64,000 nt of DNA, taken from positions 22,816,001-22,880,000 of the forward strand of contig OX597814.1 of assembly GCA_951406725.2 (NCBI GenBank), given 5' to 3'. Positions 12,689-64,000 of the stretch are shown here, piece by piece. This DNA comes from Octopus vulgaris. Its lineage: Eukaryota. A program made the translations under genes and the position numbers. The notes under the pieces are model-generated. The model made no database searches. It was not told the DNA's origin and saw only the letters and a program-made list of their open reading frames with translations. Positions within the stretch are counted from its first letter, which is position 1. Each line of letters starts with the position of its first letter.

Positions 12689-13268
12689 AAACCAAATCAA
12701 ATCAGATATCAGAAAGCAGAACCCAAATCGAAGTCGATCAGCATCAATGGAAATTGTAGCTGTGATACCAGTGCCGGTGACAAGTAAGCGAACCGTCCGA
12801 TCGTGGCCGTTGCCAGCGCTGCCCCGACTGGCCTCCGTGCAGGTGGCACGTAAAAAGCACCATCCGTTCATAGCCGTTGCCAGCCTCGCCTGGCCCCCGT
12901 GCCGGTGGCACATAGCACCATCCATTCGTGGCCGTTGCCAGACTCGCCTGACTCCCGTGCCAGTGGCACGTAAAAAGCACCATCCGATTGTGGCCGTTGC
13001 TAGCCTTGCTTGGCCCCCATGCCGGTGGCACGTAAAAAGCACCATCCGTCCGTAGCCGTTTGCCAGCTCTGTCTGGCACCTGTGCGGGTGGCACGTAAAA
13101 AGCACCCACTACACTCACGGAGTGGTTGGCATTAGGAAGGGCATCCAGCCATAGAAACACTGCCAGATCAGACTGGGCCTGATGCAGCCTTATGGCTTCA
13201 CAGACCCCAGTTAAACCGTCCAACCCATGCTAGCATGGAAAGCGGACGCTAAATGATGATGATGATGA
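12687..13268 (+). mobile_element. SINE-like family C with internal ~62-bp hairpin minisatellite and (GAT)n tail
   Basis: AAATC-rich start, six GTGCCGGTGGCACGTAAAAAGCACC-type units, conserved 3' body ggttggcattaggaagggcatccagc...catgctagcatggaaagcggacg..aaatgatgat. Confidence 0.85.
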
Positions 13269-15904: not shown

Positions 15905-16295
15905 TACCCAATAACAGCAACCGAGGGTATTGTCAAGGAAGTTTCTTTCAATTGCATTGTTATACAAATACGTTAAGAAGTAGATATACAGTATAATGAA
16001 TACTACTTTGTTTGCAATGAAATGCACAGTAAGGTGGAAGTTATTGGATATAAAATAGTGCTTGCCAGCAGTTTTTTATTATTATACAAGAATTTTCAAA
16101 GGTACCATTAGCTTGGCTTTCTGTTATCTTAGATACCATTATCTTATAAGTTAGTTGCATATTTACTTCTGTGTATGTTATTGTGCGTGTGAGTGTGTTT
16201 AAATGTTTGTATTTGTGTTTGAGTCTTGATTGAGTACACTATTGAGAAACAGCGAACCATGCTGGATCCCTTTATGTTACAAATTTACTTAGCTA

Positions 16296-16512
16296 TGAGG
16301 GGTTGCTGAAAAGTTCCTGGCTTTAAGGGCATCGTGAAAAGTTTGGTTGGAGGCCCAGCCTTCTGAATTCTTTTAGAGGGCTTAGAAAAACTGAAGGAGC
16401 ACTGCAATATGTGTCTGAATCTGAGATGGGTATATGTTGAATAAAATCATAATTAACTAATCCTTCTGTATTTTCTTTTCCACAAAGCCAGGAACTTTCT
16501 AGTACCCCCTTG
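16296..16512. mobile_element. Mariner-derived MITE
   Basis: TIRs tgaggggttgctgaaaagttcctggcttt / aaagccaggaactttctagtacccccttg, preceded by TA; a related partial copy lies at 18331-18450. Confidence 0.75.
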
Positions 16513-16526
16513 TGTGTGTATATATA

Positions 16527-17818
16527 CGAGGGGCGTTCAATAAGTAATGCCCCTGACCCACCTCCCATAGCAGTAGAGCAACGAAACTTGGCACAGTTAT
16601 TAGACTTTTTCTACATAGGAAACACCCAGAGTTATGCATTTCTCCCATTGTTTGATGCAGCTCTGGTGACCGTTTTTGTAGAAGACCCCAGCTTGGTCCT
16701 CCAACCTGAACGTGACTTCAGAAATCAAGGCTGCATCATCTGGGAAAGGCTTTCCTTTCAAAAACAACTTCATGACTGGGAAGAGGTGAAAATCAGAGGG
16801 TTCAAGGTCAGGAAAGTAGGGGGGATGGGGGAGGAGTTCATAGCCATACGCCTATGCTTCTGATCTGGCGACAAGCGAGTTGTGGACCGGAGCGTTGTCC
16901 TGCAGGAGGAGGATGTCTTTGCTGATCTTGCCCCGCCTCTTGATTTTGATAACTTCTCTTAATTTCCTCAAAAGTGAAGCATAATAGGCTCCTGCAATTG
17001 TGGTATCCTTTGCCAGGAAATCTCTCATCACTACTCCGTCCTGGTCCCAGAAGACTGTGAGCATGACCTTGCCAGCAGAGGGCTGCACCCTTGCCTTCTT
17101 TGGAGGGGGTGAGTCACGGTGCTTCCACTGCATTGACTGGACTTTGGTCTCTGGATCATCGTGATGGACCCAGGTTTCATCCTGTGTAATCAGTCTTTTG
17201 AAAAATTTTGACTCATCTTCTTGGCACATCTCCAAATTCACCCTCGAGCACTCAACGCATTCTTGCTTCTGGAAAGGTATGAGCAACCTGGGAATCCATT
17301 TGGCAGACACCTTTTGCATATGCAAATGGTCATGAATGATAGTTTCCACAGACCCGGTACTAATCTTGACCTCATGGGCTATTTGGCGAATAATTATGCG
17401 TCGATCTTCCAAAATGGCAGCCTCAACTTGACGGACAGATGCCTCATCAATGGCAGAAGAGGGCGACCAGATCTGGGAGCTGTTTCCACAGAGTTCCGAC
17501 CATGTTTGAATTCACGATGCCAGCGTTTTACAAGGTCATATGATGGGGCATCATCACCATAAGTTACTTTCATTTCATCAAAAGTCTCCCGTGGTGTGCG
17601 TCCTTTCAAATACAAAAACCGGATCACTGCTCGACACTCAACAGGCTCCATTTCACACTTGACTTTGTTCAAACACCTGTAAATCAGAAACCACAATTAA
17701 TTCAGAGCTGTAATTTGCCACTTACTCTATAGAGATATAAATGATTGCACATGCAAAATTTCAGCTAGATCCAACAACTGCAAGTGGATCAGAGGCATTA
17801 CTTATTGAACGTCCCTCG
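16527..17818 (-). mobile_element. Near-full-length mariner transposon (1292 bp)
   Basis: TIRs CGAGGGGCGTTCAATAAGTAATGCC / GGCATTACTTATTGAACGTCCCTCG, TA on both flanks, transposase inside. Confidence 0.95.
16600..17651 (-). pseudogene. Mariner D,D34D-type transposase pseudogene (irritans/Himar-like)
   Basis: MEPVECRAVIRFL...WIPRLL...QDETW...SAGKVMLTVFWD...QDNAPVH...HPPYFPDLEPSDF. One frameshift near 17400-17460 and an in-frame TAG at 16852-16854. Confidence 0.92.
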
Positions 17819-18248: not shown

Positions 18249-18284
<36 letters not shown>

Positions 18285-19480
18285 ATTCTTCAAACCAGGA
18301 ACTTTTCAGCACCACTTCATATATATATATATGAAGCGGTGCTGAAAAGTTCCTGGTTTGAAGAATATCAGGAAAAGCCTGGGCAAAGGCCCAAACTTCC
18401 AAGTTCTTTTACAGGGCTTAGAAAAACTGAAGGACCACTGCAATAAGTGCATAAATTTTATCAATTAATTTCTTTGTATAGATCCAACAGAAAGAATAAT
18501 AAATTATTAATATGAGTAATATACAATGGTGGATATTCAGCAATATTGTACCAAAGAAAATTATATTTAACCAATGAAAGTGTTGTCTGTGTGACCATTT
18601 GAAAAGCAAAAATAGCATTCAAATCTCCCTGCCTTAATTCCATCTTTAATGTCGTAGAAAAACAATATATTGGCTAAGGTAGTCTTGGTTATGTACAATA
18701 ACATGGTTACATCTGCATGTCTTTGATCAACCAGGGTTGACCTGGGCATAGAAACAGCAACTACAATAAAATATCTTTAAGACAATACTTCCATGTAAAG
18801 CAGGTAATAGTTTTCAACAGGTTGGCTAAATAATATTAATCAAAGATTACACCTCAACAAGTCTGATGTAATGTACTACAATATAACTTTCTTTCCATTA
18901 AATATAACACGTCAGAATATTAAATGAAAGCCAATATCCGAATAATAATAGACGGTGCATATTTGCAATTCCATAATGGGAATATATTCACAGTTATAAA
19001 CATTCATAGAATTCCAATACACTGTGTTTCATATATATTTAAAATATTTATACCAGATGAATTGAATTCAATTTCTAGTAAAGATAATGGCTACTAATAG
19101 TTCTATTTATTCTGGCTCTAAACTAATATAATTTACCCAAGATTTGAAGATTACATCATAGACACTGCAATGTATCGCTGTTTATTCAGAGAAAAAGAAT
19201 TAAAAGTGTATGTAGTGGGGTGGAGAAGTCTCGGCGTGTGTGGATAAGAGAGTAGAGAATGTGATTGATATGAGGAAAGGGATATAGAAAATAGAGAGAA
19301 CAGAAAGGGGGGGGGATAATGTAAGGAGTTACAACAGGCTGAGAGAAGGAGAAAGAGAAGGAGCAATTAATTAAGTTGAAAGAAAGAGGATTAGCAAGAT
19401 GTAAGAGGTGTAAAAGGGAGACAAGCAAATCAGTGATTAAGAATTCTCTCACTCATACACATACACACATACAAACATGA

Positions 19481-20649: not shown

Positions 20650-21104
20650 TAGGTTTGCGAGAGAGGGATGACCTCCCTTTGCAAATACCATAAGGGCACA
20701 GAAAGTGTGCCTAAAGCCAGCTGGAGACGATGATCTCCTGGGGCTAAAAGCTTCAGTAACACCCACCCTGAGTGGTTAGCCATATTGAGATGGCTAGTAT
20801 ACTTCACGTTGTCAAGCAGTTACTGTTTACATCTCGTTCAGAGATTTATTATTGCTATATTTATATATTTTGCATTCAATTGGTGAACACTACATTCAGT
20901 GGTTACAGATTTCCAATGAGAAGATCACTGGTTCAGTGCATTTTTGATAGTGCAACTGACAGAGGTGTGTCTAAGAATCAGTGCAGAATAAATATCTCAT
21001 GGCTCTTCATTTGTACAATAATAATAAAAAAAAAACATTTTACAATCAAATATGCTTGTCAAAATCCTTTAGTGTCATAATTAAGTGTACTCTACATCAA
21101 ATTA

Positions 21105-22495
21105 TGGAAAAATTTTTGGGGAAAGTTTTCGGTGAAAATTTTCGAAAAATTTTAGGAGAAAAATTCGGTGAAAACTTTCGAAAAATTTTTGGGTAAAATT
21201 TTCGGTGAAAATTTTGGAAAAATTTTTGGGGAAAGTTTTCGGTGAAAATTTTCTAAAAATTTTTGGAGAAAATTTTCGGGTAAAATTTTCCAAAAAGTTT
21301 TGGGGAAAATTTTCGGTGAAAATTTTCAAAAAATTTTCGTGGAAAATTTTCGGTGAAAATTTTGGAAAAATTTTTGGGGAAAATTTTTCGTGAAAATTTT
21401 CGAAAAATTTTTGGGGAAACTTTTCGGTGAAAATATTCGAAAAATACTTCGAGAAAATTTTCGGTGAAAATATTCGAAAAATACTTCGTGAAAATTTTCG
21501 TTAAAATTTTGTTAAAATTTTTGTGAAAATTTTTGTTGGAAATTTTCGGTGAAAATTTACGAAAAATTTTTGGGGAAAATTTTCGTGGAAAATTTTCGGT
21601 GAAAAGTTTGGAAAAATTTTTGGGGAAAATTTTTGGTTAAAATTTACGGTGAAAATATTCGAAAAATATTTCGAGAAAATTTTCGCTGAAAAGTTTTGGA
21701 GAAATTTTCGAAAAATTATTGAGTAAAATTTTCGGTGACAATTTTCGAAAAATTTTTGGGGAAAATTTTCGGTGAAAATTTTCGAAAATTTTCTCCATAA
21801 ATTTTTCCAAAATTTTCAGCGAAAACTTTCCCCAAAACTTTTTCGAAAGTTTTCAGCGAAAATTTTCTCCAAAGATTTTTCCCAAAAAATACTTTGTGAT
21901 TTTTGGAAAATTATTGCCATACTTTGTGATTTTGGCACCGCTGGCTTTCCATACTTTGTGATTTCGGCACCGCTGGCCTTCCATACTTTGTGATTTTGGC
22001 CCCGCTGGTCTTCCATACTTTGTGATTTTGGCACCGCTGGCCATCCATACTTTTTACAAAATTTTCACCGAAAATTTTGCCCAAAAATTTTACCCAAAAT
22101 TTTTTGAAAATTTTCACCGAAAATTTTCTCGAAAAATTTTTCCAGTTTTTTCACCGAAAATTTTCCCCAAAAATTTTTCCAAAATGTTTTGAAAATTTTC
22201 ACCAAAAATTTTACCTGAAAATTTTTCGAAAATTTTCACTTTGTTATTTTGGTACCGTTGGCTTTCCATACTTCATGATTTTGGCACCGCTGGCCTTCCA
22301 TACTTTTTCCACTGAAAATTTTCCCAAAAACTTTTTCGAAAGTTTTCTCGAAAATTTTCACTGAAAATTTCACCAAAAAATTTTTCAAAAATTTTCACCG
22401 AAAACTTTCCCCAAAAATTTTTCGAAAATTTTACCCAACAATTTTCCCCAAAAAATTTTCCCAAAAAATACTTTGTGATTTTTCGAAAATTTTTG
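21105..22495. repeat. Composite satellite block 1 (37-bp and 32-bp units), orientation flips near 21790
   Basis: 37-bp unit GGTGAAAATTTTCGAAAAATTTTTGGGGAAAATTTTC on + up to ~21790, then on -, with 32-bp units on - at ~21890-22050 and ~22240-22305. Confidence 0.9.
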
Positions 22496-22503
22496 GTAGA
22501 TAC

Positions 22504-22565
<62 letters not shown>

Positions 22566-23035
22566 GCATGCATGCATATATGTATGTGTGTGGATGTATG
22601 TATGTATGTACGTATGTATGTATACGACGGACTTCTTTTAATTTCCTCTAGCAAATCCTTACAAAGATTTGGTCGGCCTGAGCGATCACTGAAGACACTT
22701 GCCGAAAGGGATGTTTTTAAAAAGAAATTATTTTAAAACTTAGATAAACCAAGAGCTAAACGTGGTTAGAAATTTTCAGGCTAACCTATCCTGCGATATG
22801 ATGATTGTTTTTCACACCACGTAGAATATAAAAGTAGTGTATAGTACTGATTGACAAGCCCATATGTCATGACTTTCAGCACTCTCTTAAACTATATGTA
22901 TGTTAATGTGTGTGTATGGTTGCATCTATAAATAATAAATAAATAACCATATAAAGCATATGAACGTGAACGTTTGTGAGTGTGTGTGTGTGCGTGTGAT
23001 ATTCTTGTGAAACGATAGCTGAAATAAATACTCAA

Positions 23036-24465
23036 AAAAAAATTTTTGGTAAAATTTACGAAAAATTTTTGGGGAAAATGTTCGGTGAAAATTTTCGAAA
23101 AATTTTTGTGGAAAATTTTCGGTGGAAATTTTCGAAAAATTTTTGTGGAAAACTTTCGGTGAAAGTTTTGGAAAAAGTATGGAAGGCCAGCGGTGCCAAA
23201 ATCACAAAGTATGGCAGGCCAGCGGTGCCAAAATCACAAAGTATGGCAGGCCAGCGGTGCCAATATCACAAAGTATGGAAAGCCAGCAGTGCCAAAATCA
23301 AAGTGAAAATTTTCGAAAGATTTTCGGCGAGAATTTTCGAAAAATTTTTGAGTAAAATTTTCGGTGACAATTTTCGAAAATTATTTGGGGAAAATTTTCG
23401 GTGAAAATTTTCAAAAATCTTTCGTTGAAAATTTTCGAAAAATTTTTGGGTAAAATTTTCGGTGAAAATTTTGGAAAAGTTTTTGGGGAAAATTTTCGAA
23501 AATATTTTCGGGTAAAATTTTCCCTGAAAATTTTCCAAATATTTCTGGGTAAAATTTTGGGTGAAAATTATGGAAAAATTTTTGGGGAAAGTTTTCGGTG
23601 AAAACTTACGAAAAATTTTTGGAGAAAATTTTCAGTGAAAATTTTCGAAAAATTTTTGGGTAAAATTTTCGGTGAAAATTATGGAAAAATTTTTGGGGAA
23701 AGTTTTCGGTGAAAATTTTCGAAGAAGTTTGGGGGAAAATTTTCGTGGAAAATTTTCGGTGAAAACTTTTGAAAAATCTTTGGGGAAAATTTTTGGTGCA
23801 AATTTTCGAAAAATTTTTGGGGAAACTTTTCGATGAAAATATTCGAAACATACTTCCAGAAAATTTTCGGTGAAAATATTCGAAAAAATATTTCCAGAAA
23901 ATTTTCGTTAAAATTTTGGAAAAATTTTTGGGGGAAATTTTCGAAATTTTTTGGGGGAAAATTTTCGGTGAAAGTTTTTGAAAAAGTATGGAAGGCCAGC
24001 GGTGCCAACATCACAAATTACGGAAGGCCACCGGTGCCAAAATCACAAAGTATGGAAGGCCAGCGGTGCCAAAATCACAAAGTATGGCAAAAATTTTCGA
24101 AAAATCAAAGTATTTTTTTGGAAAAATTTTTGGGGAAAATTTTCGAAAAAGTTTTGGGGAAACTTTTCGGTGAAAATTTTCGAAAAATTTCTGGAGAAAC
24201 TTTTCGTTGAAAATTTTTAAAAAATTATGGAAGGCCAGCGGTGCCAAAATGACAAATTATGGAAGGCCACCGGTGCCAAAATCACAAAGTATGGAAGGCC
24301 AGTGGTGCCAAAATCACAAAGTATGGAAAGCCAGCGGTGCCAAAATCACAAAGTGAAAATTTTCGAAAAATTTTTGATTAAAATTTTCGGTGACAATTTT
24401 CGAAAAATGTTTGGGGAAAATTTTTGGTGAAAATTTTCAAAAATTTTTCGTTGAAAATTTTTAAA
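23036..24465 (+). repeat. Composite satellite block 2
   Basis: 37-bp units interspersed with runs of the 32-bp unit GGAAGGCCAGCGGTGCCAAAATCACAAAGTAT (23176-23300, 23986-24090, 24228-24352). Confidence 0.9.
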
Positions 24466-24550
24466 AGGGAGTTTATCTTCCCTATTTCTAGATAGACTGA
24501 AGTCTTTAAATTTTCCTGAACACATAAAGTGAAAAACTATTGCATGTAAT

Positions 24551-24925
24551 TACTCTTTTACTCTTTTATTTCTTTCAGTCATGTGACTGTGGCCATGCTG
24601 GAGCACCGCCTTTAGTCAAGCAAATCTACCCCAGGACTTATTCTTTGTAAGCCTAATACTTATTCTATCAGTCTCTTTTGCTGAACCGCTAAGTTACAGG
24701 GATGTAAACACACCAGCAACAGTTGTCAAGCAATGTTGGGGGGACAAACACAGGCACTCACATACATATACATATATATATATATATATGTATATACGAT
24801 GGGCTTCTTTCAGTTTCCGTCTACCAAATCCCCTCACAAGGCTTTGGTCGGCCTGCAGTGGGAATGAACCCGGAACCATGTGGTTCATAAGCAATCTACT
24901 TACCACACACCCACTCCTATGCCTA
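24551..24925 (-). mobile_element. SINE family A (internal deletion)
   Basis: Reverse complement of the family A consensus. Confidence 0.88.
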
Positions 24926-25553: not shown

Positions 25554-25972
25554 AGGCAGTGAGCTGGCAGAAATATTAGCACACCAGGCGAAATGCTTAG
25601 CGGTATTTCATCTGCTGTTATGTTCTGAGTTCAAATTCCGCCGAGGTCAACTTTGCCTTTCATCCTTTTGGGGTCAATTAAATAAGTACCAGTTATGCAC
25701 TGGGGTCAATATAATCGACTTAATCCGTTTGTCTGTCCTTGTTTGTCCTCTCTGTATTTAGCCTCTTGTGGGTAGTAAAGAAATAGGTATTTCTTCTGCC
25801 GTTATATTCTGAGTTCAAATTCCGCCCAGGTCAACTTTGCCTTTCATCCTTGCGGGGTTGATAAATTAAGTACCAGTTACGCACTGGGGTTGATGTAATC
25901 GACTTAATCCCTTTGTCTGTCCTTGTTTGTTCCCTCTATGTTTAGCCCCTTGTGGCCAATAAAGAAATAAGT
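25554..25972 (+). mobile_element. SINE family B with tandem-duplicated body
   Basis: Head plus two bodies joined at aaatag|gtatttc; TSD agtaatataag. Confidence 0.88.
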
Positions 25973-27488
25973 AATATAAGAGTTTTAAAGATAAATGAGA
26001 TTAATGTGATGGTAATTTATTTCAACTAATGCTTTACTTGTTATTGGTACCAGATGGCTGGGCAGGAATTTGGGCTTAATATGACATGTTACTCCATAAG
26101 GCTTATTGGCACAGAATGACATTTGAGGAAACTGACACTAAATAGCTGACTAGTTTCGTATTTTAGCAACTCTAGAGAAATGGAAAGCAAACTTAACTTC
26201 AGTAAGATTTGAGCTGAGAATGTAAAGAACTATTTCAAATGCTGCTAGGCTTGATGCTCTAACAATTCTGTTGATTCACCATCAAAATGTATAACAATAT
26301 ACTGATTATTATGTAAAGTGAGTTATTATTAACATTTAAGAAATAACTCTCAAGTTCTTGAGAAAGTTTTGGTTATATTATTTATGCAGCTTTTGCAATA
26401 ATGCCCACTCATGTTCCACATACTAAATAAGTTCATATTCGTGATTTTGCTCCTTTAATTATTGGTATTATCATCATTACTATTCATAAGTTTTTTCCTC
26501 TCCTCATTTCCTTTAGTATTTACTCATTGTTCATGTAGCTTTCGGCATTTTATAATCATATTCATGCCATTATAAATTATTCAAAAAGCTAGATTAATCT
26601 GACATTTCCTGAAGATCATGTTTAGATATCAACAATTACTTCATCTGTTGATTGAGTTATCCACAATTACAGAATGGTTTTCTGAATTAATGATAAGATT
26701 AGGAAGAGAACATTGCTGAAGCATATCTGCCCACTAAGTTTCAAATTAATGTGAGGAGCTAAAGATTTAATGCTGTAGGCTACTTTGATTTTGCTTTTGT
26801 CCTATCAAAAGATATCACTTCTACAAAAATGATAGCAGAATCAGACAACGGCATCCAGGCAATATATATTTTGATAGCAATAATATAAAAATGTTTAATA
26901 CTATTTCACTGATTGCTTTTAACTTCATAATTCCACATTTTCTTTCATAGTAGGAATTTTGATAATTTTCATAGAAAGATTTTTTTTAAATGTTTTAATT
27001 GTTCAGAATCAAAATTCCAGTTTGATTAAAATTCGATTAGTAGCTTCTGTTTTTAATCATCAGTTGAAGAGTCCATTTAACTTTTGTCTTTAATTTTTTT
27101 CTTGTGTGTGTGTGTTGTTGTTGTTTCTGTTGTTGTTGTTGTTGGAACTTCATACAACACTCAGAAGAAATAAATTCATCTTTTTCATATCATCTTTTGA
27201 AGTTCAATTAAGTAGGAGATATGGAGATATTCATGAGAAAAAAGGAGAAATTTTATTAGATAATAGGTTTAAAAATCTAGAAATGATAAAACTATATGAC
27301 TAAACACTAGTGAAGTTATTTAAATGACTCTGTACATTACAGACTGTATATATATAAATCAAAGACAGAATATGGCAATTCAATAGCTTGCATTAGTCAT
27401 ATTTTGTCATCTCAAGTCCACACAAACAAATTTAGGTTCTAATCAATCAAATGAAGTCTAGAATTACTCCTGTTTGAGAATATATACA

Positions 27489-36900: not shown

Positions 36901-37275
36901 TGAAATTTAGAAGAGAAAGGTAAATACCACTAGTGAGTTACAGAACTTTTGAAAGAAGATTTGTGGGTCATTTATTTATCTAAAATGTTAATTTTATCAA
37001 CATTTAAGATGATAGCTGTGATTGCTTCAACAATTTTATCAAGAACAAATAAGTTTTTATTTCAAGGAGTTGCTGTGTGGTAAGTAGCTTACTTACCAAC
37101 CACATAGTTCCGGATTCAGTCTCACTGCATGGAATCTTGGGCAAGTGACTTCTACTATAGCCTCAGGATGACCAAAGCCTTGTGAGTGGATTTGGTAGAG
37201 AGAAACTGAAAGAAGCCCGTCGTATATATATATATATATATATATATATACTTTATTTAAAAGCAGCAGAAATTC

Positions 37276-37328
37276 AACAAAACTTGTTACTCAGAGTTTC
37301 ACGTTCCCATTCGTCGGACAATTTTGTT
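37276..37328 (-). ncRNA. Minimal type I hammerhead ribozyme motif, U4C variant
   Basis: Minus strand reads AACAAAATTGT CCGACGA ATG ggaa CGT GAAA CTCtGAG TA ACAAgTTTTGTT. Confidence 0.7.
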
Positions 37329-37336
37329 AAAATTTT

Positions 37337-37389
37337 AACAAAACTGTCCAATGAATGGGAACGTGAAACTCCGAGTAACAGGTTTTGTT
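37337..37389 (+). ncRNA. Mirror HHR motif with decayed core (CCAATGA, G5A)
   Basis: AACAAAACTGT CCAATGA ATG ggaa CGT GAAA CTCcGAG TA ACAGgTTTTGTT. Confidence 0.55.
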
Positions 37390-37479
37390 GAATTTCTGCT
37401 GCTTTTAAATAAAGCATATTACTCTACCCCTGGTATTTGTGTACTTTTTTTCCACCTTGTTTCACATTTATGTGTTTAC

Positions 37480-37510
<31 letters not shown>

Positions 37511-38409
37511 GTTTGTGTGTCTGTGTTTGTCACCCCAACATTGCTTGACAACTGATGCTGGTGTGTTTACGTCCCTATCACTTAGCAGTTCAGCAAGAGA
37601 GACCGATAGAATAAGTACTAGACTTACAAAGATTAAGTCCTGGTGTCGATATGCTCAACTAAAGGTGGTGCTCCAGCATGGCCACAGTCAAATGATTGAA
37701 ACAAATAAAATAATAAAAGAAAGTATATTTCAATGAAAGTATAATTTCGATAATCTGTTATGGTTTTAACACACTTATCTATTAATATCTTTATCATATA
37801 TCTTTCTCCGCATTATCATAATTGTGAAGATCTTGGACAATCCTGATGTTTGAAAGAATTCAGGAATTATGGTTATTTGTTAAATCCTGAAATAGATATG
37901 GCATGCATTTTATTAACAGGTTGAATGCGGTTAACAATATGCTTTGTCTAAAGGGACAGAGGTTAATAGATATTTTATCGTCTTAGGCCGAAGACCTCAC
38001 ATTGCAAATTCCAAATTTATACAAATTTTTCAATTTTTCATTACTGAAATTACTTCAGAGAACACTTTGTTTCAAGTTTCTGTAATATTGATCTTTTTAT
38101 CTAAGTATCTTTTTGCATTCAATAAGGATTCTAACTAGTTTGTTTCCCGATAGCCTTAAAAGCAATTATGTTAGTAGAGATTATCTTTCGTAATTTATAC
38201 ATTGGAGATATATGGTGAACATCAATGTCACCCCTAATGTCCTACTATACCATCCTAAATGAAAATTCCAGTCATAAGCTATCAAATATTTGATATCTGG
38301 AAAGGATATTGTTTAGTTATAGATAATTACTGATACTCATTTTATTAAATTACTGGCCTGTTAACAATGTTTTGTTTCAATGCTGTGCTGAAATACAGGA
38401 TGTATCTAT

Positions 38410-38896
38410 AAATATTTTACTAATACTGCATGTATATTTATGGATGTAAACATTCTGTATACAATATGCAGTAATATGTATCTGGAAGATCCTGGAAGGA
38501 ATTGTGCCAAATTTTGGCATTGAAAGCTACACCAATGCCAGAATGTGACGACACTGCATAGTGCCAAAGATCCCAGCAATGCCATCATGCTTCAAGACCA
38601 GTTACTGCAACAGCCTGGGTTTCAAGGGCCTACAACTTTTTAATATTCTCCCAAAGAGTCTGAGGAACTTGCACAAAGTAGATGTAGGGGTTTTTAAAGC
38701 AAAGCTGGACCTCTTCCTGTCGAGAGTCCCAGATGAACCTACCTCACGGCAAGAGGTGCAAATGAGGGTAGCTACATCAAACTCTATTCTTCACCAAGTG
38801 CCACATATTAGAGGAGGCTCTTAGTAATAACAGTGTAGCAAAATGGCGGTGCATCAGCATGGCTGCAGCTCTGAGCTGAAACTAGTAAAAAAAAAA
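38410..38896 (+). mobile_element. 3' end of a CR1-like LINE (ORF2 C-terminus plus 3' UTR)
   Basis: WKILEGIVPN...NSLGFKGLQLFNILPKSLRN...FKAKLDLFLSRVPDEP...SNSI; 3' UTR ggcggtgcatcagcatggctgcagc...ctgaaactagtaaaa. Confidence 0.75.
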
Positions 38897-41954: not shown

Positions 41955-42512
41955 TCGTCATCATCATCATTGTTTAATGTCCATTTTCCGTGCTGGCATG
42001 GGTTAGACGATTTTGACTGAGGGCTGGCGAACCAGATGGCTGCACCAGGCTCCAATCTTGATCTGCAGAGTTTCTACAGCTGGATGCCCTTCCTAACGCC
42101 AACCACTCTGAGAGTGTAGTGGGTGCCTTTTTACATGCCACCGGCATGGGGGCCAGTCAGGCGGTACTGGAAATGACCTTGCTCGAATCTTTTTACACAT
42201 GTCACTGGCACAGGTACCAGTAAGGTGACGCTGGTAATGATCACGCTCGAATGGTGCCCTTTTACGTGCCACTGGCACGGAAGTCAGGTAGCTGCTCGGG
42301 CAACGATCATGCTCAGATGGTGCTCTTGGCACCCTACAAGCACGGGAACAAGTGCCAGTAAGGCAATGCTGGTAACAATCACACTCGAATGGTGCCTTTT
42401 ATGTGCCACCGGCACGGGAGTCGGTTAGTCATTCTGTCAACAATTACTCTCGGATGGTGCTCTTTGCACCCCGCTAGCACGGATGCCAGTCATCGAATTT
42501 GATTTTGATTTC
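41955..42512 (-). mobile_element. SINE-like family C
   Basis: Conserved body, ~6 minisatellite units, (GATTT)n end. Confidence 0.85.
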
Positions 42513-48574: not shown

Positions 48575-49448
48575 CTGGGTGCGGTGAATATACTGTCATC
48601 TAAATTACACAAAAATGAAAATAACACTGAAATCTCATTTTAACAGATATGTTTACCAAAATTACATGAAAATATCTTGAATTACCTAAGAGTAAATTTA
48701 TTCAATAACACTACAATTTGCTTCAACCACGGCCTCCAGACAACTTCAGAATCTTCTGCAACTCTTCTGGACAGTCTCTTTGTTTACGTTGGTGAATGTT
48801 GCCATAATCCTTGCCCTTGGTTCATCTTGGGTGTTACAAGGAGTTTTGTTGGTCTCTTGCTCAACTGCGCCACACACATAATAATCAAGAGGGTTGCAGT
48901 CTGGGGAGTTAGGTGGCCAGATGTTAGGGGTGATGTGGTTGCAGAAATTGTCTGACAGCCACGACTGGGTTCTCCAACTTGTATGGTATGGTGCAGAGTC
49001 ATGTTGCCAGACATAGAGTCTTCCAGCAGCCACCCTCTTGACCCAGGGTAGCACTACCTCCTCCAAGCACTTGATGTAGTTCTCTGTGTTGGGTATGAGG
49101 CCGTGTGGGAAGATGAAAGGAGGCATAACGTTGCCATCACTATTGATCACTCCAAACACCCTGATGTTGACTGGATGTTTGATTTTTATCACTCTCGGTA
49201 CATGTCCTCAGATTGACAGCCAAACATTCTGAAAAGCTCGTATTGGAACTCCTGGCATGAATGCCAGGCAGTACAGCATGTCGTTTCCAAATTTCTGGCA
49301 GAGTGAATTGCATCATGGTGCTGTTTTTCTCACAGACAGTACCCAACTGACCCTACGATATTGTGTGGTTGACAAAGTCAAAAATAAACAATGTACATGT
49401 GGGAAATAAAAAAATATAAAATGGCAGCAATTTACCCATCGCACCCTG
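48575..49448 (-). mobile_element. Internally deleted DD37D (maT) Tc1/mariner element
   Basis: TA-flanked TIRs c.gggtgcg...; ORF 48746-49192 contains QHDSAPYH...WPPNSPDCNPLDY with 37 residues between the two aspartates. Confidence 0.85.
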
Positions 49449-59368: not shown

Positions 59369-59679
59369 CCTATGCAATAACTGTCTACGCTGCTATCCAC
59401 TCACATTTGTGAATTTACTGCTACCTTTGTAAAGGTAATAAAGTAATTATTATTACCATTACCATTATCAAGGTGCAGTCAATTACTTGGGTTATTAAAC
59501 TGCATTCTTTTATGTTCTAAGTTCAATTCCCACTAGGGTTGACTTATCTTGAACTACTCAACTACTGGAGAAAATTCAATACAGCCAATTAACCAACTAG
59601 AAGTAGCAGCTACATCTCCCTCATATCATACTTTGCTGCTTTAAATACAGAAAGGACACATTGTATAATGTAGTCCTAT

Positions 59680-60070
59680 TTCTTTACTGCCCACAAGGGG
59701 CTATACACAGAGAGGACAAACAAGGACAGACAAACGGATTAAGTCGATTATATTGACCCCAGTGCGTAACTGGTACTTATTTAATCGACCCTGAAAGGAC
59801 GAAAGGCAAAGTCGAGCTCGGCGGAATTTGAACTCAGAACATAGCGGTAGACGAAATACCTATTGTTTTACTACCCACAAGAGGCTAAACACAGAGAAGA
59901 CAAACAAGGACAGACAAACGGATTAAGTCGATTATATCGACCCCAGTGTGTAACTGGTACTTATTTAATCGACCCTGAAAAGATGAAAGGCAAAGTTGAC
60001 CTCGGCGGAATTTGAACTCAGAACATAATGGCAGGCAAAATACCACTAAGCATTTCGCCCAGTGTGCTAG
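59680..60070 (-). mobile_element. SINE family B with tandem-duplicated body and 14-bp TSD
   Basis: TSD taatgtagtcctat at 59666-79 and 60071-84; same body-body junction as 25554-25972. Confidence 0.9.
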
Positions 60071-63527: not shown

Positions 63528-63869
63528 GGCATAGAAGTGGCTGTGTGGTAAGTAGCTTGCTTATGAACCACATGGTTCTGGGTTCAGTCCCACAGTGTGG
63601 CACCCTGGGCAAGTGTGTTCTACTATTGCCTCGGGCTGACCAAAGCCTTGTGAATGGATTTGGTAGATGGAAACTGACAGAAGCCCATCATATATATGTA
63701 TGTGTGTGTATATGTTTATGTGTCTGTGTTTGACCCCCAACATTGCTTAACAACCGATGCTGGTGTGTTTATGTCCCCATAATTTAGCAGTTTGGCAAAA
63801 AGAGACCGATAGAATAAGTACTAGGGTCGCAGTCAAATGACTCAAACAAATATAAGAGTAAAAGAGTAA
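63528..63869 (+). mobile_element. SINE family A
   Basis: Matches 10423-10840 with a 3' deletion. Confidence 0.88.
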
Positions 63870-64000
63870 AATAAAATCTATTAGGAAGCGAGGCTGCACA
63901 CATTTGAGGACTGGCTACATGTAAAACCATCCCTCAAAGAACAAACAGTACAAGACACAAAACGAAGAACCATTGTGGAAAAAAGGAATATTAGAGACAT

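What the first reader, a model, noticed from the sequence alone, without database searches (positions are those of the whole stretch)
37251..37480. Spacer-less HHR palindrome inserted into a SINE's (TA)n, with a compensatory pair between arms
Seen: 82-bp arms with no loop, inside the (TA)n of a family A SINE, followed by AATAAA and a 66-bp unpaired tail. The core is CCGACGA (U4C) in the left arm and CCAATGA in the right. One helix I pair is U-A in one arm and C-G in the other, which is a covariation supporting the fold. Inference: a Penelope-like 3' end with an inverted 5' copy that targets TA repeats and is younger than the host SINE. The two arms may derive from different template molecules.
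Basis: partly seen in the sequence, partly recalled or inferred. Interest (0 to 1): 0.7.

Follow-up and report, generated by a model that had tools for sequence, protein, structure and literature searches.

The report
Hydra-type Penelope retrotransposon end, folded back
A 230-base insert made of an 82-bp palindrome plus a tail, with a damaged hammerhead-ribozyme motif in each arm, sits in the TA repeat of a SINE and is likely the truncated, inverted end of a Penelope-like (Hydra-type) retrotransposon: a known insertion pattern and probably a dead relic.

Summary
In detail: 82-bp arms with no spacer (37251-37332 / 37333-37414), 5 mismatches, a 66-nt tail, inside the (TA)n of a SINE whose 5 comparable window copies lack it. 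Each arm is a type I hammerhead (HHR) motif (0 of 20,000 shuffles give such a fold). By eye it matches published HHRs of Hydra-clade Penelope-like elements (20 identical nt with Hydra-2_Ajap), 26 of 27 of which target (TA)n. Head-to-head inverted copy plus tail is the described Penelope insertion pattern. The insert is younger than the SINE (non-CpG 1.4% against 7.2%, p=0.007).

The 'compensatory pair' is real in one register but weak: a neighbouring bulge lets the register slip, so mixed states lose no energy; all five differences fit GC-to-AT decay; chance is about 1%. Two templates stay possible (about 0.2); fold-back of one cDNA is likelier. The locus is predicted to be inactive: both cores carry U4C, the right also G5A, and the hairpin outweighs the ribozyme fold by about 70 kcal/mol. 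No genome-wide copies could be collected; one diverged relative was seen only as a translated fragment. Verdict: new member of a known kind; interest 0.27.

The parts
37066..37222 (+). Host SINE, 5' half
   Evidence: BLAST and alignment to 5 other window copies
37223..37250 (.). Left (TA)14 target tract; 37246-37249 also match the continuation of the arm (4-nt microhomology beyond one mismatch at 37250)
37251..37332 (-). Left arm: inverted, tail-less copy of the element's 3' end; ends 37 nt after the cleavage site
37273..37331 (-). Left type I HHR motif: core CCGACGA (C3 37317, U4C), G12 37300, helix III 4+1+4 palindrome, A17 37288, helix I 14 bp with one bulge
37327..37338 (.). Spacer-less junction (centre 37332|37333), A/T-only self-complementary word; candidate fold-back or annealing site (inferred)
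   Evidence: sequence
37333..37414 (+). Right arm: direct, 5'-truncated copy of the element's 3' end
37334..37392 (+). Right type I HHR motif: helix I 37334-37347 with 37378-37392 (bulge at 37381 or 37382), core CCAATGA 37348-37354 (U4C and G5A), helix II 37355-37364 (3 bp, GGAA loop), GAAA 37365-37368, helix III 37368-37376, A17 37377
   Evidence: same layout as Hydra HHRs
37408..37413 (+). AATAAA inside the arm (mirror 37252-37257); function untested
   Evidence: sequence
37415..37480 (+). 66-nt unpaired tail; ends 102-103 nt after the cleavage site
   Evidence: the translated relative P0001 covers core to tail
37480..37499 (.). Right (TA)10 target tract; no target-site duplication can be read in TA repeats
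37500..37720 (+). Host SINE, 3' half

Best explanation
The insert is an 82-bp spacer-less palindrome plus tail inside a SINE's (TA)n, with a type I hammerhead motif in each arm, and it is likely the heavily 5'-truncated 3' end of an undescribed Hydra-type Penelope-like retrotransposon, probably made by fold-back of one cDNA and now predicted to be inactive. Inferred steps: the element's GIY-YIG endonuclease cut the SINE's TA tract; reverse transcription began at the tail end (37480), ran 148 nt through the ribozyme and stopped at 37333; the cDNA folded back at the A/T palindromic word and copied itself for 82 nt; it then jumped to the other target end where the element's own ATAT word matches (TA)n, leaving the tail uncopied. 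The arms were then identical, and the five differences are later GC-to-AT decay (3 at CpG). In the active parent the ribozyme would cut after GUA as a dimer through its palindromic helix III. Here the two motifs lie on opposite strands, each is transcribed after its own antisense copy, and any read-through RNA is predicted to form a long hairpin instead.
For: Shown here: anatomy and mismatches; HHR fold beyond chance (0 of 20,000 shuffles per arm); helix III segment self-pairs at -7.8 and -7.9 kcal/mol; absence from 5 of 5 aligned SINE copies; younger than host, non-CpG 2 of 148 against 23 of 318, Fisher p=0.007; all five differences fit loss of a G or C, 2 in the right arm and 3 in the left; hairpin -121/-126 against -49/-50 kcal/mol with the HHR helices enforced. 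From Craig 2021 supplements (PMC8557442, compared by eye): 26 of 27 Hydra families list (TA)n as target; 5 of 25 with an HHR row have helix III ACTC-N-GAGT; Hydra-2_Ajap shares 20 consecutive nt with the right arm and Hydra-2_Amil shares helix I CTGT/ACAG. Cleavage-site-to-end distances of 24 Hydra consensus sequences fall at 30-48 nt (10) or 88-153 nt (11), and the two arms end at 37-42 and 102-103 nt. Inverted 5'-truncated copy plus one-sided tail is described; head-to-head palindromic junctions were read as self-priming (PMC3846280); internal initiation at two sites explains the tail in vitro (PMC11167929). A translated relative exists elsewhere (P0001, 25 of 40 identical, E 1e-5 in 1.8 billion proteins).
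Against: No ORF, so the protein features that define Hydra are untestable, and no Penelope domain was found in 123 window ORFs. No second DNA copy in the window or in the collections open here. Rfam gives no hammerhead match at any threshold, and a single arm folds no better than shuffles (z 0.42). All 25 listed Hydra cores have U4; both arms have C4. Helix II opens with A-U, not the usual G-C, and the tail (61-66 nt) exceeds the 30-40 bp in print. The only two non-CpG differences fall on partner positions, which single-template decay gives in under 1% of draws. The Hydra comparison was by eye, not aligned by a tool. The purified Poseidon protein extends both target strands, which favours the two-template rival.
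Confidence: 0.62

Rival explanations
1. Same element, but two templates: a dimeric PLE protein cuts both strands of the TA tract, each end primes its own cDNA (one at the tail site, one at the short site) on two slightly different RNAs or on two pLTRs of one tandem RNA, and the cDNAs anneal at the A/T palindromic word. The U-A / C-G difference was then already present in the templates.
For: The only two non-CpG differences are helix I partners (chance 0.3-0.8%). Published Hydra families vary at this pair (C-G, U-A, U.G). The Anolis Poseidon protein cleaves and extends both strands, is predicted to be a dimer and starts at two internal sites.
Against: Mixed states are isoenergetic through a register slip, so selection need not couple the sites. 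The arms are identical at 72 of 74 non-CpG sites and share the unusual U4C. Both changes are ordinary GC-to-AT transitions. The pattern was noticed after the fact in one copy. Both cDNAs would have to stop at the same base.
Confidence: 0.2
2. One template, but the paired change arose later by short-range template switching between the helix I strands during DNA replication.
For: Helix I is a 14-bp inverted repeat about 30 nt apart; template switching can create compensatory changes in RNA stems (10.1101/2021.04.15.439925, abstract).
Against: The bulge and the U.G wobble were not corrected, so the tract would be 4 nt or less; no rate estimate for this genome.
Confidence: 0.07
3. A single direct PLE end inserted first; the inverted arm was added later by a replication or repair event unrelated to retrotransposition.
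For: The window holds another local inverted duplication beside TA tracts, on a mariner-like end (18281-18370).
Against: The copy stops at the distance from the cleavage site where short Hydra consensus sequences end, and head-to-head junctions with a one-sided tail are typical of PLEs.
Confidence: 0.06
4. A MITE or fold-back DNA transposon, a microRNA-type hairpin, a non-LTR retrozyme, or an assembly artefact.
For: Long inverted repeat flanked by TA; sub-threshold Rfam microRNA-model matches.
Against: A one-sided tail and an HHR in each arm do not fit a MITE; the microRNA scores are below gathering and follow from any perfect hairpin; retrozymes are head-to-tail tandems; five decay-type differences between arms exclude an assembly fold-back.
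Confidence: 0.05

Closest known systems
Hydra-clade Penelope-like elements (Craig et al. 2021, PMC8557442), closest Hydra-2_Ajap, Hydra-1_Ajap and Hydra-2_Amil
   Same: (TA)n target; type I HHR near the 3' end with helix I ending TGT / starting ACA, a U before GAAA, helix III ACTC-N-GAGT; 3' ends at about 40 or about 100 nt from the cleavage site; Penelope-13_HM is listed with a 5'-truncated inverted copy.
   Different: No ORF here; U4C in both cores and G5A in one (all 25 listed cores have U4); helix II only 3 bp; helix I 14 bp against 3-11 listed; not Hydra-1_Obim, whose HHR differs throughout.
Penelope/Poseidon insertions with inverted pLTR and tail (Adineta Pen2a, PMC3846280; Anolis PAc, PMC11167929)
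   Same: Head-to-head inverted copy, palindromic junction, tail on one side, AT-rich target.
   Different: Tail 61-66 nt against 30-40; whole insert only 230 bp; their minimal HHRs have a shorter helix III and a longer helix II.
Octopus Naiad elements (Naiad_Obim, Naiad_Ovul)
   Same: (TA)n preference and inverted structures.
   Different: No canonical HHR; their 3' ends do not resemble the insert by eye.
Non-LTR retrozymes (PMC7229834; 10.64898/2026.07.22.740005)
   Same: Non-coding, type I HHR, derived from PLE ends.
   Different: Head-to-tail tandems that allow dimer cleavage and circles; here the two motifs are on opposite strands.

Membership tests
Type I hammerhead ribozyme (PLE type) | Three-helix junction with open helix I, GAAA and NUH triplet | tested here: met
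   Both arms; 0 of 20,000 shuffles with helix I of 10 bp or more
Type I hammerhead ribozyme (PLE type) | Core CUGANGA | tested here: not met
   U4C in both arms, G5A also in the right. U4C is a known weak natural variant (PMC3088659); G5 being essential is recalled
Type I hammerhead ribozyme (PLE type) | Short palindromic helix III permitting dimers | tested here: met
   4+1+4 palindrome, self-duplex -7.8/-7.9 kcal/mol
Type I hammerhead ribozyme (PLE type) | Conserved G10.1-C11.1 pair | tested here: not met
   A-U here; many Hydra rows also have U before GAAA
Type I hammerhead ribozyme (PLE type) | Self-cleavage | not testable with these tools
   Needs an assay
Type I hammerhead ribozyme (PLE type) | Covariation across copies | tested here: inconclusive
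   Two arms only; register degenerate; distant Hydra families vary compatibly, by eye
Penelope-like element (EN+) | RT plus GIY-YIG ORF | not testable with these tools
   Fragment has no ORF part; no such Pfam hit in 123 window ORFs; no eukaryotic genome collection open
Penelope-like element (EN+) | 5' truncation with adjacent inverted copy and one-sided tail | tested here: met
   against descriptions; tail longer than the 30-40 bp described
Penelope-like element (EN+) | HHR motif in the 3' end (pLTR) | tested here: met
   motif present, core degenerate
Hydra clade | RWK and DKT motifs, no CCHH, CxCX5C linker, C-terminal endonuclease | not testable with these tools
   Definition; no coding sequence in the insert
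Hydra clade | Insertion into (TA)n | tested here: met
   26 of 27 families; also typical of Naiads, so not diagnostic alone
Hydra clade | HHR sequence and layout like described members | tested here: met
   20 identical nt with Hydra-2_Ajap, same helix I and III words as Hydra-2_Amil; by eye, no tool alignment
Non-LTR retrozyme | Head-to-tail tandem units each with an HHR | tested here: not met
   Inverted arrangement; no tandem repeat here
MITE / fold-back DNA transposon | Terminal inverted repeats at both ends | tested here: not met
   Right end is a 66-nt unpaired tail

The most novel reading that the evidence does not exclude
The two arms are separate cDNAs: a dimeric Hydra-type PLE protein opened both strands of the TA tract and reverse-transcribed two different RNA templates from the short and the tail start sites, then joined them head to head. 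The family would carry a U4C hammerhead kept under selection on helix I. Arm pairs of such mini-palindromes would then be a genome-wide natural read-out of how Penelope-like elements make their inverted repeats, an open question.
Probability: 0.2. Interest if true: 0.6.

Novelty: new member of a known kind. Interest (0 to 1): 0.27.

Why it matters
As one locus it is an ordinary decayed retrotransposon end. It matters modestly in three ways. It points to a Hydra-type family not among the 6 new consensus sequences or 26 HHR rows read in Craig 2021 (Repbase itself was not searched). It shows both 3' end classes in one insertion, suggesting Hydra tails of 60-100 nt rather than 30-40. And such mini-palindromes allow a cheap test of fold-back against two-template models of PLE inversion, which Craig 2021 lists as unresolved. 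If common and transcribed, they would also be ready-made double-stranded RNA; A-to-I editing aimed at repeats is reported in cephalopods, but the host being an octopus is my recall of the SINE, not a tool result.

Tried and rejected
Rfam: 0 matches at gathering in 64 kb; 25 sub-threshold matches over the insert, none a hammerhead family, best ones microRNA hairpin models, rejected. Other copies: none in the window (only 2 of 15 helix-III-like sites have a core); GTDB scan 1 gave 0; scan 2 gave 21 loci, none extending meaningfully beyond the 17-mer (longest 32 nt at 81%), chance; plasmids and phages no match. Protein searches: the open frame 37339-37479 and the two read-through frames found nothing in 3 word-index searches or the Atlas; full HMMER gave 2 hits. 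P0001 was used; P0002 (32% identity, 5 stretches, 1277 aa) was not examined and is probably chance. I do not read the 47-codon frame as a gene. P0001 cannot settle the pair: the 5' site is silent in that frame; its Gly fits the right-arm G, and its Leu is compatible with a canonical U4. Octopus Naiad ends do not match. Lunse 2017 (PMC5785218) is not held and Cervera 2014 supplement file 1 could not be searched; either may already list U4C variants. Supplements of the two bioRxiv preprints were not seen. A-to-I editing as the source of the arm differences was considered and dropped: the two non-CpG changes would need editing on opposite strands.

Full report
Observation. The window shows (TA)14 at 37223-37250, an inverted repeat with arms 37251-37332 and 37333-37414 and no spacer, a 66-nt unpaired stretch, and (TA)10 from 37480. 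The arms differ at 5 of 82 positions, all transitions. As DNA the hairpin folds at -76.7 kcal/mol, z -21.7. The flanks are two halves of a SINE; the 5 other window copies I aligned (of the 10 or so partial BLAST hits per half) run straight through a short TA/TG tract without the insert. AATAAA lies inside the arm. The window is AT-rich repeat-dense DNA (GC 30-42%); the only Pfam hits in 123 ORFs are two mariner transposase pieces. That the SINE is of octopus type is my recall; no call names the host.

The ribozyme motif. A relaxed type I descriptor finds both arms and one weak unrelated site in 64 kb on both strands. Each arm has helix I of 14 bp with one bulge, a 3-bp helix II with a GGAA loop, GAAA, a 4+1+4 palindromic helix III and GUA at the cleavage site (A37377; mirror 37288). 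In 20,000 dinucleotide shuffles per arm the descriptor hit 3 and 10 times, never with helix I of 10 bp or more. Against this, Rfam has no hammerhead match and one arm alone is no more stable than its shuffles (z 0.42). Both cores have C at position 4; the right core also has A at position 5, which fits decay of the CpG that U4C created. U4C is a known natural variant with much reduced activity (PMC3088659, passages and section 8); that G5A abolishes cleavage is recalled.

What it belongs to. Craig 2021 (PMC8557442; passages, section 11, supplement parts 2, 24, 52, 53 of 59 and keyword look-ups) lists 27 Hydra families, 26 with (TA)n targets, and HHR rows for 25. Five of the 25 have helix III ACTC-N-GAGT; Hydra-2_Ajap shares 20 consecutive bases with the right arm and Hydra-2_Amil shares the CTGT/ACAG helix I. 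None of the metazoan minimal HHRs in the part of Cervera 2014's alignment that I saw has that helix III (supplement file 2, part 2 of 3). These comparisons are by eye. From the table's numbers, the distance from cleavage site to 3' end in 24 families (Penelope-18_HMa and the inverted row of 13_HM left out) is 30-48 nt in 10, 88-153 nt in 11 and otherwise in 3; the left arm ends at 37-42 and the right at 102-103. The octopus family Hydra-1_Obim has a different HHR, and octopus Naiad ends do not match. All 25 listed cores have U4. The clade's defining protein motifs cannot be tested on a fragment without ORF, so I call it Hydra-type, not a proven member. A diverged relative exists elsewhere: an unnamed 80-residue predicted protein seen on 5 contigs matches the core-to-tail frame at 25 of 40 residues.

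The architecture is known. An inverted 5'-truncated copy next to the 5' end, with a 30-40 bp tail at one end and microsatellite bias, is the described PLE pattern (PMC8969392 passages). Arkhipova 2013 (PMC3846280, passages) reports abundant head-to-head inverted repeats with palindromes at the junction and reads them as self-priming. Frangieh 2024 (PMC11167929, parts 1-2 of 4) shows a Poseidon protein cutting AT-rich DNA on both strands and starting reverse transcription at two internal sites that bound the tail. PLE hammerheads with palindromic helix III work as dimers and weakly (PMC4209133 parts 1-2 of 4; PMC6765202 passages). Searches for a paper on this family or on octopus PLE hammerheads returned only these general works; Lunse 2017 was not available.

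Age. The host SINE differs from the majority of the other copies at 23 of 318 non-CpG sites (7.2%); the arms differ at 2 in 2 x 74 (1.4% per arm), Fisher p=0.007. CpG loss, 9 of 15 against 3 of 8, points the same way but is not significant (p=0.40). Homogenisation between arms would make the insert look younger than it is.

The compensatory pair. Three differences are CpG decay; the other two are 37344:37381 (C-G) and 37321:37284 (U-A). Position 37382 is a second G, so the fourth pair can slip by one. With helix I formed, both registers score the same, C with A scores as C with G (-9.2) and U with G as U with A (-6.9). The 3' change is thus neutral in either background and two sequences cannot show covariation. 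Still, two random changes land on partners in only 0.3-0.8% of draws, and the drawn register is the one seen in Hydra families, where this pair is C-G, U-A or U.G. I weigh this as plain decay most likely, two templates about 0.2, and replication template switching (10.1101/2021.04.15.439925, abstract only) about 0.07.

Mechanism. Shown: anatomy, HHR layout, nesting, relative age. Inferred: endonuclease cut in (TA)n; priming at the tail end; synthesis of 148 nt; fold-back at the A/T palindromic word; self-copying up to the element's ATAT word, which matches the target; joining; decay. Predicted present state: inactive. The whole hairpin folds at -121 or -126 kcal/mol against -49 or -50 with the HHR helices enforced; on either strand the antisense arm is transcribed before the ribozyme arm; the two motifs cannot dimerise in cis.

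Verdict. Real, well observed and largely correctly read, but a textbook PLE insertion form. New member of a known kind. The Hydra-type assignment, the long tail and the testable two-template idea keep some value. Interest 0.27.

Noticed in passing
window 18281-18370: Second palindrome: 45-nt arms around a TA tract, beside a long (TA)n; the right arm continues into sequence 80% similar over 120 bp to 16294-16413, next to the mariner remnant. Looks like a local inverted duplication of a mariner-like end.
   Followed up: partly
window 16855-17696 (-): Frameshifted mariner transposase: Pfam Transposase_1 (E 2e-23) and HTH_48 (E 7e-10) in two frames.
   Followed up: partly
window 21099-24462: Complex satellite of 13/37-bp A/T-tract units interrupted by 32-bp units, with blocks in opposite orientation that form inverted repeats, e.g. 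21725-21866.
   Followed up: no
Craig 2021 Files S1/S2 (not in the window): Hydra consensus 3' ends are bimodal relative to the HHR cleavage site (10 short, 11 long, 3 other of 24), suggesting a clade-typical tail of about 50-110 nt; not remarked on in the passages I read.
   Followed up: partly
window 37397-37455: By eye, words at the arm end and in the tail resemble the 3' ends of Hydra-2_Ajap and Hydra-1_Crog (13 of 15 nt in the latter); chance not evaluated.
   Followed up: no
window 19030 (-): GAAA followed by a 4+1+4 palindrome like that of Hydra-1_Crog, but no core or helix I upstream; probably chance.
   Followed up: partly
window 24540-24925 (-) and 63530-63900: Two SINE copies with clean internal deletions, one in the 5' half and one in the 3' half.
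   Followed up: no
window 25602-25973 and 59675-60027: Tandem dimers of a 184-bp unit in opposite orientations, apparently a second interspersed repeat; also 137-bp and 62-bp tandems at 42203-42482 and 12821-13106.
   Followed up: no
window 38549-38824 (+) and 48746-49207 (-): Open frames that look like a LINE ORF2 C-terminus and a Tc1/mariner DDE piece (recalled resemblance; no Pfam hit).
   Followed up: no
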